A stretch of DNA of 64,000 nt from Escherichia virus TH06, in the sequence record MT446386.1. The stretch is one strand, 5' to 3'. The notes below the pieces were generated by a model. It did not search any database. It saw only the letters and a program-made list of their open reading frames with translations, and was not told the origin of the DNA. The position numbers were made by a program, and so were the translations under genes. Of this stretch, positions 4,188 through 56,530 are shown in pieces; the stretch's first letter is position 1; the number at the start of each line of letters is the position of its first letter.

Positions 4188-4513
4188 TTGACAGTAATAC
4201 ATTTAGGACTTCAAATGGAAGTGAGATAAGTCCCGCTGAAGTAATAAATCGGCACAGAAGGCAATTGATCATCCATTCCTATTTGTATTACTGGTTGGAT
4301 GACCCTATCTGGTCTGATGATAAATGGCAACAAGTTGCTAATGATCTAGTGGAGCTGCAAGCTCTGTATCCAGAGCCTACCGGAGTCTTTGACGCTGAGT
4401 TCAAAGATTGGGATGGTTCTACAGGAATGCATCTCCCACACAACGAGGCTGTTGCTTGTATGGCGACAGCTGTTTACAGGATTCATAAAGACATGAACCA
4501 TGAAGTGCTCTAG
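4184..4513 (+). CDS. hypothetical protein (109 aa)
   Basis: Track ORF, start overlaps upstream stop. Confidence 0.5.
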   Translation: MIDSNTFRTSNGSEISPAEVINRHRRQLIIHSYLYYWLDDPIWSDDKWQQVANDLVELQALYPEPTGVFDAEFKDWDGSTGMHLPHNEAVACMATAVYRIHKDMNHEVL

Positions 4514-4685
4514 ATGTGAAGGAACAAACCTTCATTTAAGTAACAAGGTTATCAGAGAGCTTGCCAAAGGCTCTCCAACCAAAGGGAAGAACAAACGATT
4601 TACTAACGTCAGGGTTTATACAGCAATCTGCAAAGACTGCTTAACTACTGAGTGTCATTACGAAGAAATTGGAGAGCGTAAATGA
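4500..4685 (+). CDS. small zinc-ribbon-like protein (61 aa)
   Basis: CSRC...CKDC pairs. Confidence 0.45.
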   Translation: MKCSRCEGTNLHLSNKVIRELAKGSPTKGKNKRFTNVRVYTAICKDCLTTECHYEEIGERK

Positions 4686-5419
4686 GTCGTCGTCAATCAC
4701 GGAAAGAATCACGGAAAGACCTTCGTCGGGAAGCACTTGTTACTCGTAAAGGTAAGAGAGAGTATGAAGAGGTGGTTTTAGCAAAGCCTGTAGTTCCTCA
4801 GAACCAGTTTCAGTCTGAGCTACTTAATGCTATCAAGACTAAACAAGTTGTGTTCACAGACGCTCCTGCGGGCTGTGGTAAGACCTTTGTAATCACTTCC
4901 ACGGTTATTGATGCACTGAAGAGTGGTAAGATTCAGAAGATCATCTTGAGTCGACCTTCAGTTGGCATGGGTAACTCTCTTGGGTTACTTCCGGGAGGGA
5001 TGCGTGAGAAGTTTGAACCATACCTTATGCCTATTATTGATGTTATTACTCAGCGATATGGTAAGGGGTTCTATGAATGCCAAATCGGAAATGGTAATAT
5101 TGAATTTGTACCTCTGGAATATCTCCGTGGTCGTTCCTTCAATGATGCCATTGTTATCGTGGATGAGTTCCAGAACACCACTAAAGAGGAAGCCTTCTCC
5201 ATCATGACTCGATTGGGAGAAACCTCTCAGCTGTTCTGCATGGGTGATACAAACCAGCATGATATGCGTGGTCGTGAGAGTGGCCTCACTTGGGCTACTA
5301 ACTTTATTGATGAACACGATCTGTATGAGTTTGCTGAGATTGTAGACGGTGAATCGGATGATATTGTTCGTTCTGGTTTCTGTAAGGCGATTGTTAAAGC
5401 AATGGAAAAGAAAGCTTAA
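4682..5419 (+). CDS. phoH: PhoH-like ATPase
   Basis: Walker A DAPAGCGKTF, LSRPSVGMGNSLGLLPG, IVDEFQN, MGDTNQHD match the PhoH family. Confidence 0.8.
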   Translation: MSRRQSRKESRKDLRREALVTRKGKREYEEVVLAKPVVPQNQFQSELLNAIKTKQVVFTDAPAGCGKTFVITSTVIDALKSGKIQKIILSRPSVGMGNSLGLLPGGMREKFEPYLMPIIDVITQRYGKGFYECQIGNGNIEFVPLEYLRGRSFNDAIVIVDEFQNTTKEEAFSIMTRLGETSQLFCMGDTNQHDMRGRESGLTWATNFIDEHDLYEFAEIVDGESDDIVRSGFCKAIVKAMEKKA

Positions 5420-5430
5420 ACAGTAACTTA

Positions 5431-5439
5431 TAATGTATA
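5431..5439 (+). promoter_or_regulatory. TAATGTATA element, candidate promoter for the phage-encoded sigma factor
   Basis: Exact 9-mer 37 nt upstream of ATG 5476; same 9-mer recurs upstream of three other genes. Confidence 0.4.
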
Positions 5440-5475
5440 CTCCTTAGTGTACACTGATATATTAAGGAGTTTTAA

Positions 5476-5793
5476 ATGGCAGATCATGTAGGAAAGAGAG
5501 ATTATGCACAAGAAAGACGTACCGCAATTGCCCGTGGTGAGACAGGCGTTGGGAGCAAGAGCGGAGATGCTCAGCGCCACCGTGCACGTCGCATCGTTGA
5601 AAAGCGCGATGGAAAAGCTGCTGTCAGAGGTAAAGACGTTGGACACAAACGAGCTGTCAAGTCTGGAGGCTCTAATGCGTCAAGCAACTTACGTGTTGAA
5701 TCAGTCAGCTCAAACCGTTCAAACGGCGGCAAAAGTGGTGATCGAGCTGGAAAAGCAGCTGGAGCACGCAAAGGAGCTTTAAGCTCATCGTAA
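5476..5793 (+). CDS. basic G/K/R/S-rich protein (105 aa); alternative overlapping frame 5504-5782 also open
   Basis: Strong RBS TAAGGAG 8 nt upstream; own upstream element and downstream terminator; locally GC-rich. Confidence 0.4.
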   Translation: MADHVGKRDYAQERRTAIARGETGVGSKSGDAQRHRARRIVEKRDGKAAVRGKDVGHKRAVKSGGSNASSNLRVESVSSNRSNGGKSGDRAGKAAGARKGALSSS

Positions 5794-5797
5794 TATG

Positions 5798-5826
5798 AGG
5801 CCACCCAAATGGGTGGCCTTTTCTTT
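5798..5826 (+). terminator. rho-independent terminator
   Basis: GGCCACCC-AAAT-GGGTGGCC stem-loop followed by TTTTCTTTT. Confidence 0.65.
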
Positions 5827-5861
5827 TATATAAACCAAATTAAACTTCTTAGGTAATAAAT

Positions 5862-6116
5862 ATGTCTATTGTAAAAATCGTAAATATCATTGATGTAACT
5901 CGTACCGGTAAAACTATTAGTTGGAAATTCACCAATAAGCATAGAGGTTCAGAGAACATCATTCGTTCTATGATTCAACAAAACCCAAATACAGCTCGCA
6001 CTAACGTACTCCTTCGCGGAGCTGATGGAAAATTTATCTCTTATAAGAATAAGAACGTAGAAAAATCTTTCCGTGTTGCAGTAGAAAATCTCATCCCATT
6101 CCCTAAAGGAGTTTAA
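5862..6116 (+). CDS. small protein, paralog family B (84 aa)
   Basis: Shares ...LLRGADGKFISYKNKN...PFPKG with the next ORF. Confidence 0.5.
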   Translation: MSIVKIVNIIDVTRTGKTISWKFTNKHRGSENIIRSMIQQNPNTARTNVLLRGADGKFISYKNKNVEKSFRVAVENLIPFPKGV

Positions 6117-48535: not shown

Positions 48536-49219
48536 CCCCGTAAGCTTTGCGTATCCGATAGTACTCATGATCACATTTGAATTGCTTAATGATTAACTTA
48601 ATTTTCCACATAAGTTCTCTTTCAACCTTATATATAAGAGTTTAAAATTCTGATTTGACTGAGTAGGGCTAGCCGCTTCCCGCGCGTTTCCTAAAAGGGG
48701 GGAGTCCTCATTTAAAAAAGGGTTATTGGCAATGCCTTTACCTTCCTTTTCAACGTTCCACTTTTCCCCGTGCCTACTCCCCGTTATTCTTTCCCCGTGT
48801 ATACCATCCTATTCATTAGCTACCCGTTTATTTAGTACCCCTTTAAAGAGTGAGAGAAAGGCTATACTCTGATAACGGTCTGTTAAGGCGTGATAATAAC
48901 AGGTCTAATAATACCCCTAGTTACTACCCCATTCCCCCATAGTTACGTTGATAATAGTTTCAATAGTAATGATTATGAGTGCAATAATGATATATGTATT
49001 AATTAAGTGGATGATTGTGTTTCTTTTATTCTTTTCTTTTTCAGCGTGCCTTTGTGAGCGTAGCGAACGTCTTTGATGTTTGAGTTATACAATTATTTAA
49101 GTGGTATATTATTACCGCACTATCTTGCTATGTTTCCCCGTGGTCTGTTCTGCGGTTGTGTGTTCCCCGTTTGCCCTGGTCTGTTGGTCTGCTACCCGTA
49201 GCACCAGCGTAACACCCGT
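48536..49219. repeat. region enriched for the pentamer CCCGT (about 11 copies in under 1 kb, mostly as TCCCCGT) plus GGTCTGTT direct repeats and an AT-rich tract
   Basis: Counted by eye; strongly over-represented. Confidence 0.4.
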
Positions 49220-49336
49220 AGGATTAGTGTTATAAAGTAACAATAGCTAGTAAGCTGATTCTCTGAGTATGGAAAGTTTAGTAAATTAAATTCCTTTAGT
49301 TTTCAGTGAGTTATAAGAAAGTTAGAAAATAAATGG

Positions 49337-49364
49337 TTGACAGGTTTTTCCTTTATTATATAGT
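49337..49364 (+). promoter_or_regulatory. sigma70-type promoter P0 (TTGACA, 16 nt spacer, TATAGT)
   Basis: Consensus -35 and near-consensus -10 about 45 nt upstream of gene 49409. Confidence 0.5.
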
Positions 49365-49408
49365 TGCGATTGTAATTTGTAGTTTTCATCAACCATAAGG
49401 AATATCAA

Positions 49409-50281
49409 ATGTCTAAAGTAGCAATTAACCACTTGAACAAAGCAAACGAAAGTCTTTCCTCTTTAGGCTTAACTGTTGGTAGTCCTGATGCGTGGATGGA
49501 AAACGAAAGCGCACGTAAAGGATTCAAAAACTCTGTAATGCTGGCTTGCTTGATCATTAATTCTACTGCGAACGCTTTACAGTGTGAAGATGAAAGCACG
49601 TTCAAAGAGAACGGTTTTACCGATATGCAGGACGCTATCAATTGTTACATTCAAGCGAATTTGGATAGCTGGAATCAGAAAGATTGGCCTGAGTCATGCC
49701 GTGATGTGAAAGCTGAATTATCCCGCTTGTCTGTCATGGTTGAAGCATGGAACAAGAAAAACAAGAAACAGCCAATCAAGCCTACTGTTGCAAGTAAGAT
49801 TATGAAGTCTGTTAATCTGGCAAGTTATGCACTGGTTGCAGCTATCGGTGTTAGTGCACTGGTCACATCTCTTTCTGATAAGGCTATCGCTAGTCCTGCT
49901 CCTGCAACTGATGCGGCTAGTGTCTTCTCTAGTTCCATCAATAAGGGTTGGATGATTTGCAACGGTGCGGATAGTGACAGCAATAATATCGTGCTAAAGA
50001 TGAAATTTAGCAACGTAACAAATGATGGCGTTCTCTTTCAATCTAAAACGTTAGATAATCAGCCTAACAGTGATCTAGTTCTCAAGCGTACTGATAACGA
50101 TGCGGATATGGTGACATTTGGCACTGTACAACGTTACGAAGACGTTAAAGCTGTAACCAACCTAGTGAGCTATGGCCCGATCAATGAGTCGATGATTGCT
50201 ACAACTGTTTACAATAACGCTGATAACGCTGTTTATACCGTTCACGTTAATTTAGCCAACTGTATTAAGGCTAGTAAGTAA
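49409..50281 (+). CDS. early protein (290 aa), internal hydrophobic segment
   Basis: Track ORF, first gene downstream of P0. Confidence 0.5.
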   Translation: MSKVAINHLNKANESLSSLGLTVGSPDAWMENESARKGFKNSVMLACLIINSTANALQCEDESTFKENGFTDMQDAINCYIQANLDSWNQKDWPESCRDVKAELSRLSVMVEAWNKKNKKQPIKPTVASKIMKSVNLASYALVAAIGVSALVTSLSDKAIASPAPATDAASVFSSSINKGWMICNGADSDSNNIVLKMKFSNVTNDGVLFQSKTLDNQPNSDLVLKRTDNDADMVTFGTVQRYEDVKAVTNLVSYGPINESMIATTVYNNADNAVYTVHVNLANCIKASK

Positions 50282-50306
50282 ATAACCTATTTTCAGGAGT
50301 GTAAAA

Positions 50307-50570
50307 ATGGCTATCAAAGAAGTTAGATTATCTAATGGCTATTCTGTTTTTGTTGGCGATACCGCTATCACGTTTAATCTGCGTCATGGTCAGTTAACGT
50401 TGCCTGTTGTTACTTTCTGCGTTATGGATTTTAAACAGGCTAAAAATTGGCTATCTGCTATCGGCGTTGAAATTAACCGTGATGATTTTCGTTCTATATA
50501 TTTTGACGGTGGCTTGTCACTGGCTAACCTGCTCAATCATGGCCTTGTTGGAGGTGGCACTAATGGGTAA
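50307..50570 (+). CDS. hypothetical protein (87 aa)
   Basis: Track ORF. Confidence 0.45.
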   Translation: MAIKEVRLSNGYSVFVGDTAITFNLRHGQLTLPVVTFCVMDFKQAKNWLSAIGVEINRDDFRSIYFDGGLSLANLLNHGLVGGGTNG

Positions 50571-50817
50571 TGAAACAATCGCACTGATTGACACGCACAA
50601 TTACGGTGGCGTTACGCTCTCCTTTGATGAGTCAATCGACTACACTTATTTGTCCTTTCTAACTAAGGGTGAAATAAAAACTATTAGCTTTCCTGCGGTC
50701 TATTTAGTACAGGATTATCTCACTATTGGGAAGTATTTAGCCCAACGCGGGATTCTTCTGTCGCTGGAAGAAGTGGAACAGGTTAGCGTAGCATTTTTTG
50801 GCGAGGATAGCAACTAG
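50563..50817 (+). CDS. hypothetical protein (84 aa)
   Basis: Internal ATG 50563 of track ORF 50407, after GGAGGTGG, overlapping upstream stop. Confidence 0.4.
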   Translation: MGNETIALIDTHNYGGVTLSFDESIDYTYLSFLTKGEIKTISFPAVYLVQDYLTIGKYLAQRGILLSLEEVEQVSVAFFGEDSN

Positions 50818-50921
50818 TGATTCATGATTATTTTTGGCGTTGCTTGTTCGTTGTTACAGTGGCGTTATTCGTCGCTGATATGCTTTATTCTTATATTCTC
50901 TAACTATAGGTGATTATTATC

Positions 50922-51287
50922 ATGGGTATTATCAAATTTGTAGTAAAAGTATTCGTGGGCTTCTTCCTTGTCGTTCTCCTGCTGGGTGTGCTCCTATCGG
51001 CTATGGGTAGCGTTAAGGCTGCAACATTCTCCCCTGCTACGGTTGACGGCTTGCAATGTACTTATCTTGTAGAAAACTATGAAACCGGTAAAAAGTCACC
51101 TAAAGTTATTATTTTGCATGTAAATGATTTCGATCATGTGCAATCATATGATAAAACTGTTCAACTGGTAAATGAAACAACCGGTAAACAAGTCATGATT
51201 GATCACTTGATGCGCTCATCGTTAACGCTCTTTGATGAGTCCATGAATGAAATTGAATCCGGTAACGGTCAATGTGTAAATCCATAG
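50922..51287 (+). CDS. membrane-anchored protein (121 aa)
   Basis: N-terminal TM GIIKFVVKVFVGFFLVVLLLGVLL. Confidence 0.45.
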   Translation: MGIIKFVVKVFVGFFLVVLLLGVLLSAMGSVKAATFSPATVDGLQCTYLVENYETGKKSPKVIILHVNDFDHVQSYDKTVQLVNETTGKQVMIDHLMRSSLTLFDESMNEIESGNGQCVNP

Positions 51288-51363: not shown

Positions 51364-51388
51364 AAGCCTCGCTATGAGGCTTTTTTCA
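51364..51388 (+). terminator. rho-independent terminator
   Basis: AAGCCTC-GCTAT-GAGGCTT followed by TTTTTT. Confidence 0.65.
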
Positions 51389-51591
51389 TTTCTAGGGTGA
51401 TTGTATGGCTTACTCCCTTTTAGCTCGCTACAGTGCGTTTCAGGCCGCTTATTATTGCTTTACAAGCCGTTTTCTATGATGTATCACGCGCCCCCGCTCT
51501 TTTACCTCCTGATTTCTTCCGGTGTCCTACCGACAATAAAATAAATTCCTTTATAAAACAGTGAGATGAAAAATAATTTGAAAAAAGGGTA

Positions 51592-51619
51592 TTGACATGA
51601 TTTTCCTTTATAGTAATAT
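51592..51619 (+). promoter_or_regulatory. sigma70-type promoter P1 (TTGACA, 16 nt, TAATAT)
   Basis: Consensus -35, A-rich upstream tract; homologous to P0 over about 60 bp. Confidence 0.5.
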
Positions 51620-51748
51620 GAATCCCGTAGTAAGCAGTAAGTAACAACAAGTAGTAAAAACTCCTCGATAGGTGATTAGCATCACGGTAAAAGGCTTCAA
51701 CGGGGAGCGGTAGGAATACCGACAGTAAGACGCACAATGAAGGTGCTA

Positions 51749-51762
51749 CGCTCTTTAAAAAT
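51749..51762 (+). repeat. conserved box CGCTCTTTAAAAAT, copy 1
   Basis: Exact 14-mer present 3 times plus one near-copy within 700 bp. Confidence 0.4.
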
Positions 51763-51797
51763 CAGGCTAGAAAGTGAAAATATTCTTAAAAAGAGTA

Positions 51798-51826
51798 TTG
51801 ACACCAGAAAAAGCCTGATACATAAT
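51798..51826 (+). promoter_or_regulatory. sigma70-type promoter P2 (TTGACA, 17 nt, CATAAT)
   Basis: Followed by GAGCACTCA, shared with P4. Confidence 0.5.
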
Positions 51827-51858
51827 GAGCACTCATTCAGCGATGAATCAAAACATCC

Positions 51859-51872
51859 CGCTCTTTAAAAAT
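51859..51872 (+). repeat. conserved box CGCTCTTTAAAAAT, copy 2
   Basis: Exact 14-mer. Confidence 0.4.
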
Positions 51873-52127
51873 ATGATTTGTCTTACAGGTGGCGGTAACG
51901 TCATTACTATAAGGCGCTTAGTTGATCGCTAGAATTGATTCCTGATTCATACGTGAATAGGCGGACGAAGAGCAACAAAATAAGCCTCATTTGTTCGATA
52001 CTTTCAAATGGTCGATGCTTGAAAGCGCACTAGATTCCTAAAAGACAAATCAGACTTATCATCTTGCCCTTTCGCAAAGATTCAAGCGAGATAAGGGAAC
52101 GGAATAAAAGAAGATGATAAAAAGAGT

Positions 52128-52155
52128 TTGACAAGCTAACACGATGTGTTAAGCT
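52128..52155 (+). promoter_or_regulatory. possible sigma70-type promoter P3 (TTGACA with weak -10)
   Basis: Consensus -35 after AAAAAGAGT, but -10 poor; box copy 3 lies 36 nt downstream. Confidence 0.3.
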
Positions 52156-52168
52156 GTAAATGCTCCAC

Positions 52169-52182
52169 CGCTCTTTAAAAAT
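52169..52182 (+). repeat. conserved box CGCTCTTTAAAAAT, copy 3
   Basis: Exact 14-mer. Confidence 0.4.
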
Positions 52183-52285
52183 ATGAATCATAAGTTTAAG
52201 CCTCACCGCTTAATCCTCAATCAAATAAAGCTGATTGATATATCCTCCCAATAGCGGGAACGACGAAAAAAGATTAAAAAAGTGG

Positions 52286-52314
52286 TTGACAGCGAAAACA
52301 ACATGATTCATAAT
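52286..52314 (+). promoter_or_regulatory. sigma70-type promoter P4 (TTGACA, 17 nt, CATAAT)
   Basis: Followed by GAGCACTCA as in P2. Confidence 0.5.
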
Positions 52315-52404
52315 GAGCACTCACTAAGCAAATCACCGCTTCAGTGAAAAGCGCAACAACGGCTAACAGTTGCATAGCGTGAGAAAGCACGCTGATAGGT
52401 TTAC

Positions 52405-52418
52405 CGCTCTTTAATAAT
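52405..52418 (+). repeat. conserved box variant CGCTCTTTAATAAT, copy 4
   Basis: 13/14 match. Confidence 0.35.
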
Positions 52419-53086
52419 TTAAACATTCTCCTATATCGGTTGAATATGCTTGATGATAATAACCATCGGAAAGCATACCAGATAAAACGGTGTAAGATTC
52501 TCTAAACTATCAGAGAAAACAATCTTACAATCCCTTGCTGGAAACGTCACCACTGATAAACGGATTCATTGAGTGTACGCAAAGACTTAAGCTAATCGCC
52601 CACGGTTAAGGGTAGCGGCGGTCATCGCTAACAAGGCGCTACAGTGAAAGAAGTTAATCAGGGTAGGCAAGCCCGAAGAATTAACGCTCAATTGAGAGCG
52701 GCGGGGAGTGGTTAAAAAGTGGCAAATTGCTATTTAACAATAAGGTTTAGTGTGAACGTTTACGATGTGAATGATTTGAGGCCACTATCGATGGCGTACA
52801 TAGTCAGTTTATGTAGTAAACTTGCCGAAAGATATAAAACGTCAGAACATTAGACGGTCAATGACTCTTTCACAATAGCATCCCGTTGTGGGCGATGGCT
52901 AGTGATTGAGAGTTGATACAAAAGGATAGGCGAGAGCGAAAGCAAAGTAGACGATATTGCCGACGGTTACAATAAACGTAACTAATTAGAGTCGGACGCA
53001 CTGCCTTATTGTGATGATTGATCATCGCTATCAGGTCGGCTTCGTTTATAGCGACTAATTAAAGATACCAGATGAAACATCACGGA

Positions 53087-53134
53087 TAAGGGGGCGGCAA
53101 GGTTAACTCCTGATAAGACCGCCCCGCTTATCAA
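53087..53134. promoter_or_regulatory. long imperfect palindrome GATAAGGGGGCGG...CCGCCCCGCTTATC with GATAAG repeats
   Basis: Read directly; about 100 nt upstream of gene 53236. Confidence 0.3.
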
Positions 53135-53235
53135 TAATTACTTAACAATGAGTGGTTATTGATAAGTTAATAGTGACTTAAACAAGCTCATAGAGAGCGG
53201 GGCAATAGCGCCCTTACAATTGAAAGGTGAATATC

Positions 53236-54135: not shown

Positions 54136-54240
54136 GTAAGACAGTTTAAATAAACATAAGGTGCTATCTTAACGGGTAGCGCCTTTTCTTTTATCAGTGC
54201 ATTGATTCAGTGCATTAATCAAAGAATTTAATCAAAGGTG

Positions 54241-56034: not shown

Positions 56035-56233
56035 TCTCTAGTGCCAGATTTAACAAACTAAATTCCTTTATAAACCAACCACTTAGTAAATTTATTGAAA
56101 AAGATGGTAGTATTCTGGGACTATGGGTAATGCTCTGTATATAGACCCTTTGAAAATTTCTTAGAAAATAAGTTTACTAAATATAACTTACTTAAATAAT
56201 ATTACTTTTAATCTCTGATAAAGGGTAAATAAT

Positions 56234-56530
56234 ATGACTTTAGAGGTATATAAATTCCTTTTTGTAAGCTGTTTAACTATCAGCGTTATAGGGTTTATTG
56301 TTCTCAGAAACAAAGCAGCAAGCTGGGAGAGAATGTATAAATCTCTAGTCCGAGTGGATGAGATGTATAATGAGAAAGTTAAAGTAACACTTAATGATCT
56401 TATTATGCAAGTTGAAGACAGAAATAAGCGTCTTCAGAACCTCAACCATGAAGTATTACGACTTGCTCGTGCTAATGAAGACTTGCGAGTAGCTATTGCT
56501 AAGCAGCAGGAGATTAACAGTGAAAGTTAA
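56234..56530 (+). CDS. membrane-anchored coiled-coil protein (98 aa)
   Basis: N-terminal TM FLFVSCLTISVIGFIVL then heptad-like region. Confidence 0.45.
   Translation: MTLEVYKFLFVSCLTISVIGFIVLRNKAASWERMYKSLVRVDEMYNEKVKVTLNDLIMQVEDRNKRLQNLNHEVLRLARANEDLRVAIAKQQEINSES

What the first reader, a model, noticed from the sequence alone, without database searches (positions are those of the whole stretch)
49288..49364. Duplicated promoter module (P0 and P1) with shared upstream element AAATTCCTTTA..CAGTGAG
P0 (49288-49364) and P1 (51543-51619) share AAATTCCTTTA, then CAGTGAG, an A-rich tract, TTGACA, and TTTTCCTTTAT in the spacer. A third copy of AAATTCCTTTAT occurs at 56050. This implies promoter duplication and a shared upstream factor-binding or UP element.
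Basis: seen in the sequence. Interest (0 to 1): 0.4.

Follow-up and report, generated by a model that had tools for sequence, protein, structure and literature searches.

The report
Paralogous early phage promoters, conserved upstream site
Two host-type early promoters of a phiEco32-like coliphage are old copies of one ~90-bp cassette whose conserved upstream block looks like a DNA-bending (IHF-type) site next to a UP element; this is a tidy but fairly ordinary piece of phage promoter architecture.

Summary
P0 (49288-49364) and P1 (51543-51619) match at 54 of 75 ungapped positions; the next best match in 128 kb is 40. AAATTCCTTTA occurs exactly three times, all on the + strand (0.06 expected). 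The third copy is at 56060, not 56050.

The window is a phiEco32-like Kuravirus. P0 is the published sigma-70 early promoter upstream of the gene-128 homologue, about 670 bp from the genome end. P1 heads the 1.85-kb ORF-free spacer and is missing from the SU10 promoter table.

The A-rich tract is a UP element: 12 of 14 in register for P1, 8 of 14 for P0.

The farther block (-100 to -59) is as conserved across three genera as the -35 and -10 hexamers, while its flanks are not. Positions invariant among P0 orthologues are the ones shared with P1 (odds ratio 7, P = 4e-4). Indels between this block and the promoter come in steps of about one helical turn.

In the distant 7-11 and A24 phages the homologous element is always a perfect IHF consensus, WATCARNNNNTTR. 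In this window it scores 8/9 (P0), 7/9 (P1) and 8/9 (third copy).

My best reading is a duplicated cassette: architectural (IHF-like) site, UP element, core promoter. Function is untested. The case is ordinary in kind, with modest novelty.

The parts
49272..49298 (+). P0 conserved upstream block (-100..-74): gaaagtttagtaaattAAATTCCTTTA. It contains the longest invariant run of the whole region, AGTAAATTAAATT (49280-49292).
   Evidence: MAFFT alignment of 19 phages. Mean column conservation is 0.91, against 0.64-0.68 in the flanks.
49301..49313 (+). P0 IHF-consensus-like core TTTCAGtgagTTA, 8 of 9 specified positions of WATCARNNNNTTR. The A/T tract AAATT ends 8 nt upstream of it.
   Evidence: C, A and the middle T of TTR are invariant; both R positions vary only between G and A.
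49315..49331 (+). P0 A-rich tract at -57..-41, a weak-to-moderate UP-element match (8/14; 9/14 when shifted by 2).
   Evidence: consensus AAAWWTWTTTTNNNAAA taken from PMC2412878.
49337..49364 (+). P0 core promoter: TTGACA, a 16-nt spacer containing TTTTCCTTTAT, then TATAGT. The start site is predicted near 49371 (inferred, not mapped).
   Evidence: It is orthologous to the SU10 early promoter '76677-ttgacagccttttcctttaatatatagt' upstream of CDS125.
49409..50281 (+). First gene of the P0 operon, the phi32_128 homologue (290 aa, unknown function). The operon continues to about 51287.
51364..51390 (+). Intrinsic terminator that closes the P0 operon.
   Evidence: It matches the SU10 terminator at 74441.
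51543..51568 (+). P1 upstream element: AAATTCCTTTA, then 2 nt, then the core AAACAGtgagATG (7/9 to WATCARNNNNTTR).
51570..51586 (+). P1 UP element AAAATAATTTGAAAAAA, 12/14 in exact register (13/14 when shifted by 1).
   Evidence: The background fraction of window positions scoring 12 or more is 9e-5.
51592..51619 (+). P1 core promoter: TTGACA, a 16-nt spacer with TTTTCCTTTAT, then TAATAT. The start site is predicted near 51626 (inferred).
   Evidence: Present in phiEco32 and SU10 but absent from the SU10 promoter table.
56060..56085 (+). Third, upstream-half-only copy: AAATTCCTTTA, then 2 nt, then AACCAAccacTTA (8/9). It lies in the intergenic region between the gene-117 and gene-116 homologues, with no good -35 downstream.
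   Evidence: It is a conserved island in ECBP2, where the flanks have diverged.
56252..56262 (+). Fourth, one-mismatch copy AAATTCCTTTT, inside the first codons of the gene-116 homologue.
51749..52414 (+). Context rather than part of the duplicated module. Spacer promoters P2 (51798-51826), P3 (52128, poor -10) and P4 (52286-52314), plus four boxA-like CGCTCTTTAA elements at 51749, 51859, 52169 and 52405. One boxA follows each of P1-P4 and none follows P0.

Best explanation
P0 and P1 are paralogous copies of one ancestral early-promoter cassette of about 90 bp, read by the host sigma-70 RNA polymerase at the start of infection.

From upstream to downstream, each cassette holds:
2. An A+T-rich UP element for the alpha C-terminal domains (-57..-41).
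3. A consensus -35 TTGACA, a 16-nt T-rich spacer and a good -10.

The upstream block is proposed to bend the DNA in helical phase with the promoter, so that upstream DNA wraps onto the polymerase and initiation is boosted.

P0 lies about 670 bp from the genome end and drives a short four-gene operon closed by a terminator. P1 is the first of four spacer promoters. Each of those four is followed by a boxA-like element, and together they feed the long early transcript.

Shown here: the homology of the two modules, conservation of the block, its phasing, and the consensus matches.

Inferred: promoter activity of P1, binding by the alpha C-terminal domains, and binding by IHF. I put the IHF identity alone at about 0.35-0.4.
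For: - Homology of the two modules: 54/75 ungapped against a next-best 40. BLAST finds both places in relatives.
- Core promoters score 11/12 and 10/12 to the consensus. P0 is orthologous to the published phiEco32/SU10 early promoter.
- UP element: P1 scores 12/14 in register, against a background of 9e-5.
- Conservation: block -100..-74 scores 0.91, as high as the -35 and -10 hexamers (0.92), while flanks score 0.64-0.68. The longest invariant run, AGTAAATTAAATT, lies in this block.
- P0-invariant columns are the ones shared with P1: odds ratio 7.0, P = 3.6e-4 for upstream columns only.
- ECBP2, KBNP1711 and EcoN5 keep the block although their -35 has decayed to TTGTCG.
- Phasing: SU7 has an 11-bp insertion between block and UP element. 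The core-to-(-35) distance is 36 in Kuravirus, 34 in A24 and 45 in 7-11.
- Cross-family homology: in 7-11, SE131, pSal01, A24 and ECO319P1 the element reads ...TAAATTC(C/T)(C/T)TTATAAATCAGTGAGTTA. All 13 unique copies are 9/9 matches to WATCARNNNNTTR.
- Those perfect sites number 2-4 per terminal region where 0.05-0.14 are expected, P <= 0.0025 each.
- blastn links the 7-11 region to Kuravirus P0.
- The IHF consensus and the optional A-tract half-site are as described in 10.1101/382655.
Against: - In this window the IHF core is imperfect: P0 8/9, P1 7/9. Matches at that level are common by chance.
- phiEco32's own P0 is only 7/9 (ATG in place of TTR).
- The N4 (TGAG) and the CCTTTAT stretch are also conserved. 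IHF alone would not require that, which hints at shared descent or at a more sequence-specific factor.
- A-tract phasing is unremarkable: 75th to 96th percentile.
- The full upstream element of P1 is missing from many relatives, which carry a TTGCAA-type promoter there instead. EP335's P1 reads AAAAACCTTTA.
- The third copy has no convincing -35/-10, so the block can exist without a promoter.
- No transcription-start or protein-binding data for P1 or the block were accessible. Pavlova 2012 and Savalia 2008 are not held.
Confidence: 0.6

Rival explanations
1. The upstream block is an operator for a different sequence-specific protein. Candidates are a phage early protein conserved in both phage families (for example one that autoregulates or shuts off P0 and P1), or another host protein such as H-NS or Fis. 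On this view the resemblance to the IHF consensus is incidental.
For: - Conservation extends beyond what IHF needs. TGAG in the N4 positions, CCTTTAT and TAAATT are all kept across families.
- Copies occur 53 bp apart in tandem in Grimontviridae.
- Copies also occur away from promoters, as the third and fourth copies.
- TAAATT resembles the core of the published H-NS high-affinity motif (own knowledge, not tested here).
Against: - No DNA-binding domain was found in the P0-operon proteins or neighbouring early proteins by Pfam or PHROGs.
- All 13 Grimontviridae copies satisfy the IHF consensus exactly, and that consensus was defined independently of these phages.
Confidence: 0.22
2. The block acts without a dedicated protein. 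It would be a distal alpha-CTD contact, or intrinsically bent or easily wrapped A/T-rich DNA, that extends the UP element.
For: - The most conserved stretch is pure A/T: AGTAAATTAAATT.
- Indels of about one helical turn preserve the face of the helix.
- Strong phage early promoters are known to use upstream A/T-rich DNA (own knowledge).
Against: - AA/TT periodicity near 10.5 bp is not exceptional: P1 is at the 75th percentile and P0 at the 96th for AA only.
- The conserved G/C-containing core (TCAGTGAG) is not explained by this view.
Confidence: 0.1
3. The similarity is only the residue of a duplication or gene conversion, and the block beyond the UP element has no function.
For: - P1's full element is restricted to a subset of relatives. 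EP335 shows a recombination breakpoint exactly at the module's 5' edge.
- The window's P1 spacer is closer to P0 than in relatives, which is compatible with conversion.
Against: - The block is a conservation island in P0 across three genera and is recognisable in another family.
- Shared columns coincide with columns constrained among orthologues.
- The block survives where the -35 has decayed.
Confidence: 0.06
4. The motif works in RNA. AUUCCUU(U) is complementary to Shine-Dalgarno-like AAGGAAU or UAAAGGG sequences of downstream genes (gene 128, gene 116) and would mask their ribosome-binding sites.
For: - The gene-128 RBS reads AAGGAAT (49398-49404) and the gene-116 RBS reads ATAAAGGG. Both are complementary to the motif.
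- The third and fourth copies lie in transcribed DNA.
Against: - At P0 and P1 the motif lies upstream of the predicted start sites. P1's copy sits behind a terminator, so it is not in the relevant transcripts.
- The fixed 49-nt distance to the -35 in all phages argues for a role at the DNA level.
Confidence: 0.02

Closest known systems
Early sigma-70 promoters of phiEco32 and vB_EcoP_SU10 (Pavlova et al. 2012; Mirzaei et al. 2014, PMC4281155)
   Same: P0 is the orthologue of the promoter upstream of phi32_128 / SU10 CDS125. The operon, the terminator and the array of promoters in the gene 125-124 spacer are the published layout.
   Different: P1 is not among the three spacer promoters listed for SU10, although SU10 carries the sequence. 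The accessible papers do not mention the P0/P1 paralogy, the conserved upstream block or the boxA-like repeats.
Phage lambda PL: stimulation by IHF together with a distant UP element (Giladi et al. 1998, listed in the references of PMC1784095)
   Same: A strong early phage promoter read by host sigma-70 polymerase, with an IHF-type site upstream of about -60 and A/T-rich DNA beyond it.
   Different: IHF binding here is only inferred from sequence. The core is imperfect in this window. There is no repressor or operator context.
E. coli rrnB P1/P2 region (UP element, upstream Fis sites, boxA antiterminator in the leader; own knowledge)
   Same: A near-consensus UP element (P1, P2), an architectural-protein-like site upstream of it, and boxA-like CGCTCTTTAA(A/C)AA shortly downstream of the promoters.
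   Different: The upstream site resembles IHF, not Fis. No sequence homology to E. coli was found. Antitermination has not been tested.
Tandem early promoters A1, A2, A3 of phage T7 (own knowledge)
   Same: Several strong host-type promoters clustered near the genome end that presumably enters first. They are A-rich upstream of -35; P2 even shares AAAAAGAGTATTGAC with T7 A1 (from memory).
   Different: The T7 promoters are not known to share a conserved element at -100..-60. Here the copies are 2.2 kb apart, with an operon between them.
Promoter-early stem-loop (PeSL) cassettes of T4-type phages (own knowledge)
   Same: Repeated early-promoter modules flank variable gene cassettes. Here the P0 cassette is translocated in EcoN5 and P1 is swapped in other clades.
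   Different: No stem-loop partner is present. Breakpoints do not generally fall on the motif; EcoN5 keeps more than 100 nt upstream of it.

Membership tests
Sigma-70 (housekeeping) promoter | -35 hexamer close to TTGACA and -10 hexamer close to TATAAT, separated by 16-18 nt | tested here: met
   P0 is TTGACA-16-TATAGT (11/12). P1 is TTGACA-16-TAATAT (10/12).
Sigma-70 (housekeeping) promoter | Transcription start mapped about 7 nt downstream of the -10, dependent on sigma-70 holoenzyme | not testable with these tools
   Literature states that phiEco32 has four sigma-70 early promoters, one of them upstream of gene 128. The primary papers are not held. P1 is not in the SU10 list.
UP element (alpha-CTD site) | A/T-rich sequence at -57..-41 matching AAAWWTWTTTTNNNAAA | tested here: met
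   P1 scores 12/14 in register, against a background of 9e-5. P0 scores only 8/14 (z about 2), so it is met for P1 and weak for P0.
UP element (alpha-CTD site) | Stimulation depends on the alpha C-terminal domain | not testable with these tools
   Needs in vitro transcription with alpha-CTD-deleted polymerase.
IHF binding site | Core consensus WATCARNNNNTTR | tested here: inconclusive
   Window: P0 8/9, P1 7/9, third copy 8/9. Homologous sites in five Grimontviridae phages: 13 of 13 are 9/9 and enriched (P <= 0.0025). The middle T of TTR, which is the critical position, is invariant in P0.
IHF binding site | [quoted passage not shown] | tested here: met
   The A/T tract (T)AAATT ends 8 nt upstream of the core in P0, P1, the third copy and the 7-11 group. 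The comparison with lambda H' spacing is from memory.
IHF binding site | Binding and sharp bending by IHF, with an effect lost in ihfA/ihfB mutants | not testable with these tools
   No experimental data were found.
rrn/lambda-type boxA antitermination signal (context of P1, not of the duplicated module) | boxA sequence (CGCTCTTTAACAA-like) in the nascent RNA shortly after the promoter | tested here: met
   CGCTCTTTAA occurs 4 times, on the + strand only, where 0.1 is expected. One copy follows each of P1-P4, and the pattern is conserved in all relatives. The consensus itself is own knowledge.
rrn/lambda-type boxA antitermination signal (context of P1, not of the duplicated module) | NusB/NusE-dependent read-through of terminators | not testable with these tools
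   Not tested. PMC8948821 says the antitermination strategy of the related phage 7-11 remains to be defined.
T4-type PeSL mobile promoter cassette | Early promoter paired with a stem-loop that flanks swapped genes | tested here: not met
   No paired stem-loop is seen in the sequence next to the motif copies, and the terminator scan places none there. Recombination breakpoints are mostly not at the motif.

The most novel reading that the evidence does not exclude
C3-morphotype podophages of two families (Gordonclarkvirinae and Grimontviridae) share an ancient cis-regulatory cassette that imitates a ribosomal-RNA promoter region. It combines an architectural-protein (IHF) site phased with a UP element and a consensus core promoter, followed by rrn-type boxA antiterminators. 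On this reading, host IHF and the Nus factors are required host factors for early gene expression, which would answer the open question of how these phages antiterminate their long early transcripts.
Probability: 0.25. Interest if true: 0.55.

Novelty: new member of a known kind. Interest (0 to 1): 0.3.

Why it matters
phiEco32-like (Kuravirus) phages are therapy candidates and a model for phage-encoded sigma factors, yet their early, host-dependent step is only sketched.

If the upstream block is a real IHF-type or other factor site, early expression, and so host range and infection efficiency, would depend on a host architectural protein. Such cassettes would also be useful as compact, very strong promoters.

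The paralogy gives a natural experiment, because the same upstream module sits on two different core promoters, once with boxA downstream and once without.

In kind, however, this is standard bacterial promoter architecture: UP element plus bending site.

Tried and rejected
- Chance similarity: rejected.
- Known RNA family in or around the modules or in the spacer: none at E <= 1.
- Host origin of the module: no match in 5,426 E. coli genomes.
- Protein-coding explanation:
  - No ORF covers the P0 block.
  - The minus-strand ORF over P1 (annotated only in phage Paul) has no Pfam or PHROG family.
  - The mini-ORF ATGGAAAGTTTAGTAAATTAA is not conserved, because its ATG is lost in relatives.
- Phage-sigma (gp36) promoter tAATGTAtA at any copy: absent. 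The third copy has only cTcTGTATATA.
- CRP and Fis sites: looked for by eye against remembered consensus sequences. There was no convincing match, and no formal scan was possible.
- Origin of replication: DnaA boxes cluster next to the sites in A24 and ECO319P1 but not near P0 in this window.
- Intrinsic curvature: the A-tract periodicity test was unremarkable.
- Candidate phage regulator: none recognisable among the P0-operon or nearby early proteins.
- Primary phiEco32 papers: PMC3275717 and PMC2587145 are not held.
- Related loci: IMG/VR gave only 4 via gp128, so relatives were taken from GenBank phage records instead.

Full report
**What the window is.** The region is 98.4% identical to Escherichia virus TH38 and about 90% identical to phiEco32 and vB_EcoP_SU10 (Gordonclarkvirinae, Kuravirus). 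The window's + strand corresponds to the phiEco32 minus strand. The phiEco32 right genome end maps to about window 48671. The genes downstream of P0 are the homologues of phi32_128 to phi32_125. A 1.85-kb stretch without annotated genes follows, then phi32_124.

**The observation.**
- The two modules align without gaps at an offset of 2255 nt, with 54 of 75 positions identical.
- Sliding the P0 75-mer over both strands of the window gives a mean of 20.3 identities (sd 3.9) and a next-best score of 40.
- With the -35 hexamer masked, the score is 48/69, against a maximum of 36 elsewhere.
- AAATTCCTTTA occurs exactly three times, all on the + strand, where 0.06 is expected.
- The third copy is at 56060-56070, not 56050. 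It shares only the upstream half of the module.
- A one-mismatch fourth copy lies at 56252.

**What is already known.**
[quoted passage not shown] - Its Table S2 lists those sequences. The first is P0. The three spacer promoters correspond to window 51798, 52128 and 52286.
- P1 is not listed, although SU10, phiEco32 and five other relatives carry it almost unchanged.
- The two primary phiEco32 papers are not held, so I cannot say whether P1 was mapped there.

**Anatomy.** In what follows, the first T of TTGACA is taken as -35.

| Element | P0 | P1 |
|---|---|---|
| Core promoter | TTGACA-16-TATAGT | TTGACA-16-TAATAT |
| UP consensus match at -57..-41 | 8/14 | 12/14 in register |
| AAATTCCTTTA | -84..-74 | -84..-74 |
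| CAGTGAG | -68..-62 | -68..-62 |

- The UP consensus AAAWWTWTTTTNNNAAA comes from PMC2412878. Only 9e-5 of window positions score 12 or more.
- AAATTCCTTTA and CAGTGAG lie beyond the canonical UP region.
- The motif starts exactly 49 nt before TTGACA in every phage that has it.

**Is the far-upstream block under constraint?** I fetched the region from 19 relatives in three genera: Kuravirus, Suseptimavirus and Nieuwekanaalvirus.
- In P0 the block from -100 to -74 has mean column conservation 0.91. That equals the -35 and -10 hexamers (0.92). Sequence further upstream scores 0.64 and the transcribed leader 0.68.
- In the MAFFT alignment the longest invariant run of the whole 194-nt region is AGTAAATTAAATT, at 49280-49292.
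- Columns invariant among P0 orthologues are strongly enriched for identity with the P1 consensus. For upstream columns only, the odds ratio is 7.0 and P = 3.6e-4. What the paralogues share is what selection keeps.
- ECBP2, KBNP1711 and EcoN5 keep the block although their -35 has decayed to TTGTCG.
- SU7 carries an 11-bp insertion, one helical turn, between the block and the UP region.

**A more distant family.**
- Upstream of the first early promoter of Salmonella phage 7-11 (Grimontviridae) I found GAAAATAAATTCTCTTATAAATCAGCGAGTTAG. This is clearly the same element.
- blastn links that region to Kuravirus P0 (84.6% over 52 nt, E = 2e-4).
- SE131, pSal-SNUABM-01, Cronobacter phage A24 and ECO319P1 have it too. 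It occurs there as two or three tandem copies, 53 bp apart.
- Every one of the 13 unique copies is a perfect match to the IHF core consensus WATCARNNNNTTR (consensus and optional A-tract half-site as described in 10.1101/382655).
- Such perfect sites number 2-4 per terminal region where 0.05-0.14 are expected (P <= 0.0025 in each phage).
- For comparison, the whole 64-kb window has 11 perfect sites against 8 expected, and none of them lies at P0 or P1.
- At the homologous register the window scores 8/9 for P0 (TTTCAGtgagTTA), 7/9 for P1 (AAACAGtgagATG) and 8/9 for the third copy (AACCAAccacTTA).
- ECBP2's third copy reaches 8/9 with a different mismatch (AATCACctacTTA).
- Within P0 orthologues the C, the A and the middle T of TTR are invariant, and both R positions vary only between purines.
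- The A/T tract ends 8 nt upstream of the core.
- The distance from core to -35 is 36 nt in Kuravirus, 34 in A24 and 45 in 7-11, so again the steps are about one helical turn.

**Interpretation.** The most economical reading is a duplicated early-promoter cassette made of an architectural site, a UP element and a core promoter. The site is positioned so that a sharp bend centred near -75 wraps upstream DNA onto RNA polymerase. This is the logic described for lambda PL, where IHF acts with a distant UP element (Giladi et al. 1998, cited in PMC1784095).

I am confident of the paralogy, the sigma-70 nature of the promoters and the constraint on the block. I am only moderately confident that the protein is IHF, for four reasons:
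- The window's cores are imperfect.
- phiEco32's own P0 is 7/9.
- Positions IHF should not care about (TGAG, CCTTTAT) are also conserved.
- The third copy has no usable -35/-10.

A different host or phage protein remains a serious rival. No DNA-binding domain was recognisable in the P0-operon or neighbouring early proteins. Intrinsic curvature finds little support. A purely neutral relic is contradicted by the conservation pattern.

**Distribution of P1.** Only about a quarter of related genomes cover the whole P1 region (23 of 77 records).
- ES17, IME267, KBNP1711, Bas89 and SU7 have a TTGCAA-type promoter at that place. It carries a UP-like tract but at most remnants of the upstream element.
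- EP335 has P1 with a recombination breakpoint exactly at the module's 5' edge, and its motif reads AAAAACCTTTA.
- P1 is therefore an exchangeable module. The identity of its spacer with P0 (TTTTCCTTTAT) is specific to this phage and TH38.

**Context.**
- P0's operon ends at an intrinsic terminator at 51364-51382.
- Each of the four spacer promoters is followed by CGCTCTTTAA(A/T)AAT. There are four copies, on the + strand only, where 0.1 is expected. All relatives conserve this, and A24 has it too.
- In SU7 and TH42 the element reads GCTCTTTAACAATTTATC, which I recognise as the E. coli rrn leader boxA (own knowledge).
- P0 has no such element downstream.
- This suggests a division of labour. 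P0 gives a short, terminated early operon. P1-P4 give an antiterminated long early transcript. That bears on the statement in PMC8948821 that the antitermination strategy of these phages remains to be defined.
- I found no paper in the held library linking phiEco32-like phages to boxA or IHF.

**Verdict.** In kind this is known promoter architecture. The specific conserved upstream element, its cross-family homology and the unlisted promoter P1 appear to be undescribed. Interest is modest.

Noticed in passing
window 51749-51758, 51859-51868, 52169-52178, 52405-52414 (+ strand): Four boxA-like elements CGCTCTTTAA(A/T)AAT, where 0.1 is expected. One lies downstream of each spacer promoter P1-P4 and none follows P0. 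They are conserved in all relatives, and in SU7 and TH42 they match the E. coli rrn leader boxA over 18 nt (from memory). This points to Nus-factor antitermination of the long early transcript.
   Followed up: partly
L021 (EcoN5) 4239-5864, compared with window 49288-51287: In phage EcoN5 the whole P0 cassette (promoter plus the homologues of genes 128-125) sits between the gene-120 and gene-117 homologues, not at the genome end. The cassette behaves like a mobile, moron-like unit. Its -35 there is TTGTCG, but the upstream block is intact.
   Followed up: partly
window 54190-54235: Tandem 13-14-nt units TATCAGTGCATTG / ATTCAGTGCATTA / ATCAAAGAATTTA / ATCAAAGGTGATG lie just after the gene-124 terminator-like hairpin. 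The first unit is a perfect IHF consensus, and the second carries the same ATTCAG variant as P0.
   Followed up: no
window 51390-53226: A stretch of about 1.85 kb free of ORFs, conserved in all relatives and transcribed from up to four strong promoters. It has no Rfam match at E <= 1, and its function beyond carrying promoters and boxA elements is unknown.
   Followed up: partly
window 49125-49200: Pyrimidine-rich imperfect repeats (CCCCGTGGTCTGTTCTGCGG, CCCCGTTTGCCCTGGTCTGTTGGTCTGC) lie between the terminal repeat and P0. They may be a packaging or ejection signal.
   Followed up: no
L025 (A24) 60-100 and L026 (ECO319P1) 300-490: Several perfect DnaA boxes (TGTGGATAA / TTATCCACA) cluster next to the IHF-consensus sites upstream of the early promoters of the Crifsvirus phages. 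The arrangement looks like a replication origin. No such cluster lies near P0 in the window.
   Followed up: partly
window 51474-51737 (- strand): An 87-codon ORF on the opposite strand overlaps P1. A shorter version is annotated as a gene in phage Paul (CPT_Paul_130). It has no Pfam or PHROG match and is probably spurious.
   Followed up: partly
window 51786-51841 and 52274-52329: Spacer promoters P2 and P4 are also paralogues of each other (56 nt, 75% identity; TTGACA-17-CATAAT followed by GAGCACTCA). P2's -35 region, AAAAAGAGTATTGACA, resembles T7 A1 (from memory).
   Followed up: no
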